IMG/VR virus record: IMGVR_UViG_2820651690_000008
Location: 1-31,054 of that record
Direction: 5' to 3' (one strand)
Origin: a virus
Length of the DNA stretch: 31,054 nucleotides
The notes beneath the pieces are model-generated. The model saw only the letters and a list, made by a program, of their open reading frames with translations, was not told where the DNA came from and made no database searches. Positions within the stretch are counted from its first letter, which is position 1. Each line of letters starts with the position of its first letter. This document shows positions 9,600 through 10,076 of the stretch, one piece after another. Made by a program: the position numbers and the translations under genes.

Positions 9600-10076
9600 G
9601 TGGAATTTGAAGAAATATTGCTGGAATTAAAAAAAGGAAAGCGTGCAAGGCGCAAACAATGGCATAAAAACAATATGCCAACAGCAAATATTTTCATAGA
9701 CAATGATATTATAAGATACGAATGTTTAGATGCGGGTTATGAGATTTGTAAAATGTGGAGTCCAGTTGATATTAGTTCGGATGATTGGGAAATTATTGAA
9801 GTTAAATCGCCATCATTGGAATTACAAAATATATCAAAGGCGATGGCGGAAAGCATATCAGAGAATATTAGAAATACTGGTTTATTAGATATATCAAATA
9901 AAGACAATAATGATGCTTTTTCGCGAGAAGAAATTAAAAATATACTTGAAAAAGAATTAGAAGAAATTAACAGTCAGTATAAAATAAGCAATAAATATTT
10001 AAAAGGATATTTGCTTGGTAATTTAGATGGCAGAAAAAATACAATATTAAATATTTTAACATTATTAATTAAATAA
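9600..10076 (+). CDS. DUF2829 (Thoeris anti-defence Tad2-like) N-terminal domain protein with a ~90-aa C-terminal extension
   Basis: GTG start after AGAAGGAGGA; MEFEEILLELKKGKRARRKQW ... WSPVDISSDDWEIIE matches the DUF2829 pattern M-FEEAL-ALK-GKK-RR-W ... W-PSQEDLLAEDWEIV. Confidence 0.5.
   Translation: MEFEEILLELKKGKRARRKQWHKNNMPTANIFIDNDIIRYECLDAGYEICKMWSPVDISSDDWEIIEVKSPSLELQNISKAMAESISENIRNTGLLDISNKDNNDAFSREEIKNILEKELEEINSQYKISNKYLKGYLLGNLDGRKNTILNILTLLIK

What the first reader, a model, noticed from the sequence alone, without database searches (positions are those of the whole stretch)
9600..10076. DUF2829 (Thoeris anti-defence Tad2-like) domain with an unexplained C-terminal extension and its own candidate promoter
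The N-terminal ~68 aa fit the DUF2829 signature, which I recall is the fold of Tad2, the phage protein that sponges the Thoeris signalling molecule gcADPR (MEFEEILLELKKGKRARRKQW ... GYEICKMWSPVDISSDDWEIIEV). A further ~90 residues with no obvious family follow. A perfect -35 TTGACA lies inside the end of the upstream gene and pairs with an extended -10 in the intergenic spacer. This suggests the gene can be expressed independently, as expected for an immediate-early anti-defence factor.
Basis: partly seen in the sequence, partly recalled or inferred. Interest (0 to 1): 0.6.

Follow-up and report, generated by a model that had tools for sequence, protein, structure and literature searches.

The report
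Divergent Tad2-like phage protein with orphan tail
A temperate phage of a low-GC Firmicute encodes a very divergent member of the known Tad2 (DUF2829) family of proteins that soak up bacterial immune signals, carrying a 90-residue helical tail that matches nothing known; it is a modest variation on a well-known theme, and its claimed private promoter does not hold up.

Summary

It is a fringe member. Two canonical members score 90-96 bits. The GWNG motif reads QWHK. The loop that carries ligand-contact residues S76 and T78 is 2 residues shorter than in all 119 relatives compared.

The 90-residue C-terminal extension is genuine coding sequence and is predicted to form three helices. It has no credible homologue among 1.84 billion representative proteins, Pfam, PHROGs or the PDB. 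Tad2 is known to occur fused to the sponge families Acb4 and Sequestin; the tail is detectably neither.

The promoter claim fails on geometry. TTGACA and TGgTATGAT both exist but lie 21 nt apart, and the implied start site falls on the Shine-Dalgarno. The gene more likely belongs to a two-gene cassette with orf151, from a promoter-like site at 8998-9026 to a strong terminator at 10359-10399.

Best reading: a candidate immune-signal sponge of uncertain specificity. This is a new variant of a known kind, of modest interest.

The parts
9600..10076 (+). Complete ORF: 158 aa, GTG start, TAA stop. Tad2-like domain plus C-terminal extension.
   Evidence: The identical protein (P0001) is annotated in NCBI as a DUF2829 domain-containing protein from a Firmicutes MAG, and is encoded on 3 metagenome contigs (2 shown, the longest 89 kb).
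9600..9803 (+). Tad2-like / DUF2829 domain (aa 1-68). Predicted elements: alpha1 3-11, beta 15-18, 29-34, 37-42, helix 55-58, beta 63-66.
9804..10073 (+). Orphan C-terminal extension (aa 69-158). Three predicted helices: 73-98, 109-127, 131-157.
   Evidence: AF2 pLDDT is about 80 for helices 1-2 and below 50 for helix 3. No family or PDB match. In-frame codon-usage score is 0.297 bits/codon against a mean of 0.249 for the phage's genes; the off-frames score -0.67 and -0.90.
9584..9589 (+). Shine-Dalgarno AGGAGG, 10 nt upstream of the GTG, in an unstructured initiation region.
   Evidence: Sequence. Folding of 9540-9610 gives -0.1 kcal/mol, less structured than every one of the 200 shuffles.
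9543..9575 (+).
   Evidence: Not called by the consensus scan.
9104..9559 (+). Upstream orf151 (148 aa from the ATG at 9113 in the ENA gene call), function unknown, 40 nt from the Tad2-like gene. Probable first gene of the same transcription unit.
   Evidence: phrog_11237, E=7.8e-10, unknown function. No Pfam, NCBIfam or PDB hit. No terminator between the two genes.
8998..9026 (+). Best promoter-like site for the cassette: TTGACT-17 nt-TATAAT (11 of 12), in the 298-nt gap upstream of orf151.
   Evidence: This is a consensus match only; function is not shown.
10359..10399 (+). Strong intrinsic-terminator hairpin (14-bp stem) with an A-tract before it and a U-tract after it. It lies 283 nt after the stop codon and 38 nt before orf201.
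   Evidence: -18.7 kcal/mol, z = -3.9, 1 of 200 shuffles folds as well.

Best explanation
The gene encodes a highly divergent member of the Tad2 (DUF2829, PF11195) family, carried by a temperate phage of a low-GC, probably spore-forming Firmicute.

The most likely function of the N-terminal 66-68 residues is that of a Tad2-type sponge. Protomers would assemble into an oligomer whose inter-protomer pockets, lined here by W21, H22, W53 and D57, bind and sequester a nucleotide immune signal. An ADP-ribose-derived Thoeris signal is the most probable ligand. Sequestration would keep the host effector inactive. The pocket is altered (N to H, a 2-residue shorter beta4-alpha3 loop, T to V, GWNG to QWHK, IKT to LDA), so the ligand may differ from 3'cADPR.

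The 90-residue C-terminal extension is a lineage-specific module of three amphipathic helices. I infer that it most likely provides or stabilises oligomerisation of a minimal core that lacks most of the beta2-beta3 insertion. In SPO1 Tad2 and HgmTad2 that insertion forms the dimer interface.

Expression is most likely as the second gene of a two-gene cassette (orf151 + tad2-like), running from the promoter-like site at 8998-9026 to the terminator at 10359-10399. It is unlikely to come from the TTGACA / extended -10 pair.

Shown: homology, the conserved and the altered residues, the coding status of the tail, the absence of homologues, and the sequence signals. Inferred: sponge activity, ligand class, oligomeric state, the role of the tail, and the transcript boundaries.
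For: Family membership:
- The PF11195 hit is above its threshold and covers the full profile.
- All seven columns that are invariant in 119 relatives are kept: F3, K11, R18, W21, D57, D62, W63.
- The equivalents of SPO1 Tad2 W25, W73 and D79, the main ligand contacts, are W21, W53 and D57.

Prior from experiments on the family:
- Four of 5 tested Tad2 homologues inhibited type I Thoeris; the fifth, ModTad2, instead inhibits type II.
- In a later screen, 65 of 84 tested members of the three sponge families Acb2, Tad1 and Tad2 inhibited at least one signalling defence.

Context:
- The surroundings are those of a phage: holin, ParB-N6 methyltransferase, TerS/TerL, portal, scaffold and major head protein, with a cI-like switch upstream.

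The tail:
- It is real coding sequence.
- Ninety open codons occur in only 0.19% of windows in shuffled sequence.
- It is predicted helical with pLDDT about 80 for the first two helices.
- Tad2 pockets form only between protomers, and dimerisation uses the insertion. That insertion is reduced here: 31 residues lie between the two Trp positions, against 35-49 in relatives.

Transcription signals.
Against: - The match is weak for the family: 34 bits, where two canonical members score 90-96 bits. No single DUF2829 protein among 1.84 billion representatives reaches E<0.001 against it.
- Positions that are nearly invariant in the family are changed: G to Q20, G to K23, K to D44, T to A45, L to S59, A to S60.
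- H22 is not seen at that position in any of the 119 relatives.
- The W-to-D loop is 3 residues long, against 5 in all 119 relatives. This removes the equivalent of S76/S90 and turns T78/T92 into Val. The HgmTad2 triple mutant S90A/T92A/D93A loses gcADPR binding.
- Foldseek found no Tad2 structure.
- Beta4 is not modelled as a strand, and mean pLDDT is only 70.
- Nothing tests oligomerisation or binding.
- The 73-aa Enterococcus/Listeria clade manages with a core almost as short (35 residues between the Trp positions) and no tail, so the tail is not obviously needed for assembly.
Confidence: 0.5

Rival explanations
1. Two-sponge fusion. The C-terminal helical module is itself a second signal-binding domain of a family not yet described. 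The protein would then block two immune signals at once, as the known Acb4-Tad2 and Tad2-Sequestin fusions are thought to do.
For: Tad2 (PF11195) is frequently fused to other sponge families. The Sequestin family (PF21825: short, all-helical, 60-80 aa) was discovered precisely because it appears fused to Tad2 and Acb4 (PMC12265669). The tail is all-helical, about 90 aa, acidic to neutral, and a real coding sequence.
Confidence: 0.13
2. The fold is retained but the function has changed. The DUF2829 domain here no longer sequesters an immune signal. The protein would use the domain and its helical tail for something else, such as binding a host or phage protein or acting as a regulator.
For: The pocket region is unusually divergent: QWHK for GWNG, LDA for IKT, a loop shorter than in all 119 relatives, and T78 to V. 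The profile score is low. One weak PHROG match is to a family labelled 'transcriptional regulator' (phrog_643, E=3e-4). The gene sits beside late-regulation, lysis and packaging genes rather than in an obvious anti-defence island.
Against: The two pocket tryptophans and the aspartate that dominate ligand contact in SPO1 Tad2 are conserved. No function other than signal sequestration has held up for the family; the AcrIIA7 anti-Cas9 claim was not reproduced (PMC10680739). The phrog_643 label is an unverified annotation.
Confidence: 0.27
3. Accidental tail. The extension arose by loss of the ancestral stop codon, or by fusion with downstream sequence, and is a tolerated appendage without function.
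For: Canonical family members end 3-10 residues after the invariant Trp (one has 22); this protein has 95. The tail is an orphan. It is very AT-rich, with GC3 0.16, and rich in K, N, I, L and E.
Against: In-frame codon usage is as good as in the phage's bona fide genes, and both off-frames score strongly negative. Ninety open codons in 32%-GC DNA are rare by chance (0.19% of windows in shuffles). The predicted helices are amphipathic and modelled with confidence. The protein is identical on contigs from two different samples.
Confidence: 0.1
4. The gene has its own sigma-70-type promoter (TTGACA at 9543 plus the extended -10 at 9567) and is expressed independently as an immediate-early gene.
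For: Both motifs are present exactly as described. Extended -10 promoters can work without a good -35.
Against: The spacer is 21 nt and the scan did not call the site. Neither the motif nor promoter-like sites are enriched over chance. The predicted start site falls at the first bases of the Shine-Dalgarno. The gene lies about 19 kb from the early switch. A far better consensus match (11 of 12, 17-nt spacer) lies upstream of orf151.
Confidence: 0.12

Closest known systems
SPO1 Tad2 (Gp34.65, 89 aa; PDB 8SME/8SMF/8SMG)
   Same: The same Pfam family and the same order of secondary-structure elements: N-terminal helix, antiparallel sheet, short helix, last strand. The equivalents of W25, W73 and D79 and of the terminal D-W are conserved.
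   Different: About 28% identity over the domain. N26 becomes H22; S76-Q77 are deleted; T78 becomes V56. The beta2-beta3 insertion (residues 36-59, with the alpha2 dimer interface) is reduced to a tight turn. A 90-residue C-terminal tail is added.
HgmTad2 / AcrIIA7 (PDB 8KBI, 104 aa) and ModTad2 (PDB 9EIB, 89 aa)
   Different: HgmTad2 binds cyclic dinucleotides through its long insertion (residues 32-72), and ModTad2 has a second pocket in the same region. That region is essentially absent here, so a second pocket of this type is not expected.
73-aa DUF2829 proteins of Enterococcus/Listeria/Vagococcus prophages (for example P0005)
   Same: These are the closest in sequence, up to about 42% identity over the domain. 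They also have a short core: 35 residues between the two aromatic positions, against 31 here.
   Different: They end 4 residues after the invariant Trp, keep GW(S/N)G, IKT and the 5-residue loop, and have no tail. I found no experimental test of this clade.
Tad2 fusion proteins: Acb4-Tad2 (Pasteurella phage Pm86) and Tad2 with a PF21825/Sequestin domain (Comamonas MGE), from PMC12265669
   Same: A Tad2 domain joined to a second short module in one polypeptide. For Sequestin, that module is all-helical.
   Different: The partner here matches neither PF13876 nor PF21825, nor T4 Sequestin DenB.1. It has no detectable relatives.

Membership tests
Tad2 / DUF2829 (Pfam PF11195) | Profile match above Pfam's gathering score, covering the domain | tested here: met
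   34.1 bits against 25, E=4e-8, residues 1-66 on profile positions 1-73/73. The margin is low: two canonical members score 90-96 bits.
Tad2 / DUF2829 (Pfam PF11195) | Family-invariant residues (F, K, R and W in the N-terminal half; D...DW at the C-terminus) | tested here: met
   F3, K11, R18, W21, D57, D62 and W63 are invariant across the 120-sequence alignment.
Tad2 / DUF2829 (Pfam PF11195) | Tad2 fold: alpha1, antiparallel beta-sheet, short helix before the last strand | tested here: inconclusive
Tad2 / DUF2829 (Pfam PF11195) | Ligand-contact residues of the gcADPR pocket (SPO1 W25, N26, W73, S76, T78, D79; HgmTad2 W21, N22, S90, T92, D93) | tested here: inconclusive
   W21, W53 and D57 are kept. 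N becomes H22, the Ser position is deleted, and T becomes V56. The loop is 3 residues, against 5 in all 119 relatives.
Tad2 / DUF2829 (Pfam PF11195) | Insertion between beta2 and beta3 that forms the dimer interface (and the CDN/cUMP pocket in some members) | tested here: not met
   Reduced to a D34-N35-D36 turn in the model. There are 31 residues between the Trp positions, against 35-49 in relatives. The 73-aa clade is nearly as short.
Tad2 / DUF2829 (Pfam PF11195) | Short single-domain protein (about 70-105 aa) | tested here: not met
   158 aa, with 95 residues after the invariant Trp, against 3-22 in 119 relatives.
Tad2 / DUF2829 (Pfam PF11195) | Homotetramer with inter-protomer pockets | not testable with these tools
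   Only monomer prediction is available; no multimer modelling or biochemistry.
Tad2 / DUF2829 (Pfam PF11195) | Binds and sequesters an immune signalling nucleotide, and relieves Thoeris, CBASS or Pycsar defence | not testable with these tools
   Requires binding and infection assays.
Sequestin (Pfam PF21825, crAss001_48) as the identity of the C-terminal extension | Profile match, and similarity to a verified member (T4 DenB.1/Y16Q) | tested here: not met
   No PF21825 hit at E<=10. T4 DenB.1 itself scores 4.3e-19. BLASTP of the tail against DenB.1 gives no alignment at E<=100. No shared PHROG.
Sequestin (Pfam PF21825, crAss001_48) as the identity of the C-terminal extension | Conserved R7/E11/Q45/R59-type residues | tested here: not met
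   By inspection of the sequence, no [RK]-x3-E followed by Q at about +34 and R at about +48 occurs in residues 69-158.
Acb4 (Pfam PF13876) as the identity of the C-terminal extension | Profile match | tested here: not met
   No PF13876 hit at E<=10.
   The spacer is 21 nt, and the scan did not call the site.

The most novel reading that the evidence does not exclude
The orphan three-helix tail is a new signal-binding or effector-binding module found by 'guilt by fusion' to a Tad2 core, the same logic that uncovered Sequestin. The trimmed Tad2 core, with its His-containing and shortened pocket loop, would bind a signal different from those characterised so far. The protein would then be a new two-module inhibitor of signalling immunity in Firmicutes phages.
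Probability: 0.12. Interest if true: 0.6.

Novelty: new variant of a known kind. Interest (0 to 1): 0.3.

Why it matters
Tad2-family sponges are a well-established and very widespread phage counter-defence. The database search returned 7,976 proteins with E<=0.001 among the 8,000 candidates scored. One more member is therefore not news in itself.

What is of some use is that this protein sits at the edge of the family. It has a minimal core, an altered pocket loop and an appended helical module that matches nothing. Partners fused to Tad2 have already led to a new sponge family, so the tail is a cheap candidate to test. The core could also extend the known range of ligand specificities.

For annotation, the practical lesson is different. 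A DUF2829 hit does not by itself predict the ligand. A perfect -35 hexamer is not a promoter unless the spacing fits.

Tried and rejected
- phmmer of the full protein against PDB sequences found no Tad2 chain, only a spurious MCM3 match.
- The word-indexed homologue search with the full protein found only the protein itself. With the N-domain alone it found no candidates.
- Exhaustive phmmer against 1.84 billion representatives found only the protein itself and P0002, a 581-aa repeat protein (E=1.8e-15). I reject P0002 as a homologue. Each of its five repeats gives only about 29 bits (30% identity over 71 aa, pairwise E=2e-5) around a shared EKELEEIN word. The summed score is inflated because the repeats are not independent.
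- tblastn against 50,697 phage records gave only weak N-domain hits, E 0.1-5. These were useful only as stepping stones to the PDB Tad2 chains.
- IMG/VR scans with this protein and with orf151 found no relatives.
- Five distant relatives of the ParB-methyltransferase were fetched. None has a DUF2829 gene or a homologue of the tail nearby. Synteny therefore could not show whether the tail was once a separate gene.
- The window and the ENA contigs are identical across the gene, so no dN/dS test was possible.
- Foldseek against the PDB and BFVD gave nothing significant.
- The afdb50 library was unavailable.
- Rfam found no RNA family anywhere in the window.
- The supplementary tables of the Tad2 papers, which list lengths and architectures, are not held.
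- P0054 (142 aa) has an N-terminal extension that I suspected to be Acb4. Pfam did not confirm it.

Full report
OBSERVATION

The ORF is as described. It runs from 9600 to 10076 on the + strand and encodes 158 aa. GTG is the first start codon after an in-frame stop. A perfect AGGAGG lies at 9584-9589, 10 nt upstream. The initiation region 9540-9610 is essentially unstructured: -0.1 kcal/mol, weaker than all 200 shuffles. The N-terminus aligns residue for residue with the N-terminus of DUF2829 proteins (M-x-F-x-E-x-L), which supports the GTG start.

Pfam PF11195 (now named 'Tad2-like') matches residues 1-66 over the whole profile, with E=4e-8 and 34.1 bits against a cut-off of 25. The rest of the protein matches no family in Pfam, PHROGs, NCBIfam or the PDB at better than E about 0.02. 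The identical protein is already in NCBI, named 'DUF2829 domain-containing protein' from a Firmicutes MAG.

THE DOMAIN

No single Tad2 sequence is close to this one. phmmer against the PDB found none. An exhaustive phmmer against 1.84 billion representatives found no DUF2829 protein at E<0.001.

I therefore bridged through a 73-aa Listeria-phage DUF2829 protein, found by tblastn at 33% identity. That protein hits the solved Tad2 chains: ModTad2 8V3E/9EIB, SPO1 Gp34.65 8SME, HgmTad2/AcrIIA7 8KBI, 9KZR and SptTad2 8WJD. A seed alignment then retrieved 7,976 proteins with E<=0.001 among the 8,000 candidates scored. I aligned 119 of them with the query.

All seven columns that are invariant in the family are kept: F3, K11, R18, W21, D57, D62 and W63. 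The main ligand contacts of SPO1 Tad2 are listed in 10.1101/2023.05.01.538930. They map as follows:
- W25 to W21
- N26 to H22
- W73 to W53
- S76 deleted
- T78 to V56
- D79 to D57

In HgmTad2, the mutants W21A/N22A and S90A/T92A/D93A abolish gcADPR binding (PMC10680739). The aromatic and acidic core of the pocket is therefore present, but two of its polar contacts are not.

The protein also breaks positions that are nearly invariant in the family. GWNG reads QWHK, IKT reads LDA, and LA reads SS. It has 3 residues between the W53 and D57 positions, where all 119 relatives have 5. It has 31 residues between the two Trp positions, where relatives have 35-49. Two canonical members score 90-96 bits on PF11195, against 34 here.

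Conclusion: the domain is a true but peripheral member of the family.

THE EXTENSION

Residues 69-158 are genuine coding sequence.
- The in-frame codon-usage score is 0.297 bits per codon. The phage's clear genes average 0.249, and the two off-frames score -0.67 and -0.90.
- Ninety open codons occur in only 0.19% of windows in shuffled sequence of this composition.

The only sequence match is P0002, a 581-aa protein with five tandem repeats. Each repeat matches at about 29 bits around a shared EKELEEIN word, and the impressive total E-value comes from summing non-independent repeats. I do not accept it as homology.

Among 119 relatives, the tail after the invariant Trp is 3-10 residues, with one of 22. 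Here it is 95.

THE MOST INTERESTING LEAD, AND ITS TEST

A 2025 preprint (PMC12265669) shows that Tad2 domains are often fused to other sponge families. These are Acb4 (PF13876) and a short all-helical family, PF21825. PF21825 was found to be a 3'cADPR sponge ('Sequestin') precisely because of these fusions.

I tested whether the tail is one of these.
- Neither PF21825 nor PF13876 matches, even at E<=10.
- I identified the T4 Sequestin as DenB.1: 64 aa, PF21825 at E=4.3e-19.
- BLASTP finds no alignment between DenB.1 and the tail at E<=100.
- The two proteins fall in different PHROGs.
- The conserved R/E/Q/R pattern of Sequestin is absent from the tail.

The tail is therefore not a detectable member of any known sponge family. 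It remains possible, but unsupported, that it is a new one.

EXPRESSION SIGNALS

TTGACA (9543-9548) and TGgTATGAT (9567-9575) both exist. The spacer between them is 21 nt, and no hexamer at 16-18 nt spacing resembles a -10. The scan did not call the site. The motifs are not enriched over chance. A start site about 7 nt after the -10 would fall on the first bases of the Shine-Dalgarno.

A much better consensus match, TTGACT-17-TATAAT (11 of 12), lies at 8998-9026. It sits in the 298-nt gap upstream of orf151. orf151 ends 40 nt before the Tad2-like gene, with no hairpin between them.

A strong terminator lies at 10359-10399, 283 nt after the stop codon. It has a 14-bp stem, -18.7 kcal/mol and z = -3.9. 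The simplest reading is a two-gene, moron-like cassette, orf151 + tad2-like, with its own promoter and terminator. All of this rests on consensus matches, not on shown function.

CONTEXT

The element is a temperate-type phage, on an 89-kb metagenome contig. The gene order along the + strand is as follows:
1. A cI-like HTH gene on the opposite strand, about 19 kb upstream.
2. A rightward early operon: AAA_24, DnaD/DnaB-type replication genes and a C5 methylase.
3. Many small ORFs, with an ERCC4 nuclease and a T5orf172 gene.
4. A Spo0A_C protein and a major-vault-protein homologue.
5. orf151, then the Tad2-like gene.
6. orf201, a LydA-type holin, a ParB-N6 methyltransferase, and TerS/TerL.
7. 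Further on, portal, scaffold and major head protein.

The gene thus sits at the distal end of the early region, next to the lysis and packaging genes. That is not where an immediate-early gene would be expected. I found no relatives in IMG/VR or in the phage collection that could show how this slot evolved.

MECHANISM AND VERDICT

Most likely (about 0.5), the protein is a Tad2-type oligomeric sponge for an ADP-ribose-derived or other nucleotide immune signal. The helical tail would assist assembly of a minimal core.

The ligand cannot be named. The family is now known to bind 3'cADPR, His-ADPR, N7-cADPR, cyclic dinucleotides and cUMP/cCMP, and this pocket is atypical.

The rivals are:
- the fold is kept but the function has changed (about 0.27);
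- the tail is a second, new sponge module (about 0.13);
- the tail is an accidental read-through (about 0.10).

This is a new variant of a known kind and of modest interest.

Noticed in passing
window 6220-8805 (+): An 861-aa protein homologous to eukaryotic major vault protein. Pfam gives MVP_shoulder 1.3e-22 and Vault_3 4e-9. phmmer matches rat/human MVP chains at E about 5e-16 over residues 444-781. It has no PHROG hit. Viral MVPs in human-gut phages were reported in bioRxiv 10.1101/2023.11.10.566534, so this is probably another example.
   Followed up: partly
window 5550-6248 (+): A phage-encoded protein with a Spo0A C-terminal DNA-binding domain (Pfam Spo0A_C 8.4e-27; TIGR02875 1.1e-32, below the equivalog cut-off). 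It points to a spore-forming Firmicute host and possible interference with sporulation.
   Followed up: no
window 12531-12662: A perfect 65-bp tandem duplication (2.0 copies, 100% identity) at the junction of the methyltransferase stop and the TerS start. It is absent from both ENA contigs, which otherwise differ from the window by 1-2 mismatches over the aligned stretch. TerS remains intact from the second copy. It could be real heterogeneity or an assembly artefact.
   Followed up: partly
window 10077-10436: A 360-nt AT-rich gap with a promoter-like site (TTGTAA-17-TATACT, 10258-10286). About 75 nt later comes the strong terminator at 10359-10399, only 38 nt before orf201, the holin, the methyltransferase and the terminase genes. 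The layout recalls lambda PR'-tR', a late promoter plus a terminator that needs antitermination. orf151 would be a candidate late regulator. This is untested, and Rfam finds nothing here.
   Followed up: partly
window 14350-22760: TerS/TerL (12612-14346) are separated from the portal gene (22766) by about 8 kb of small ORFs and a second replication-type module: RepA_N and DnaD-like proteins at 17159-17569 and 18055-18915. A first replication module lies upstream of the window. This is an unusual order and could be an inserted element.
   Followed up: no
P0002 (581-aa metagenome protein, not in the window): A membrane-anchored protein with five roughly 80-residue tandem repeats, each made of two 'xxDIAxxxGAPxFxVEKxR'-like half-units. 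It is the only database protein that scores against the tail of the Tad2-like protein, through a shared EKELEEIN word. This is probably chance inflated by the repeats.
   Followed up: partly
L012 17744-17938 (-) = phage T4 denB.1: The 64-aa T4 'Y16Q' Sequestin of PMC12265669 corresponds to gene denB.1 (NP_049888.1). It matches PF21825 at E=4.3e-19 and phrog_774.
   Followed up: yes
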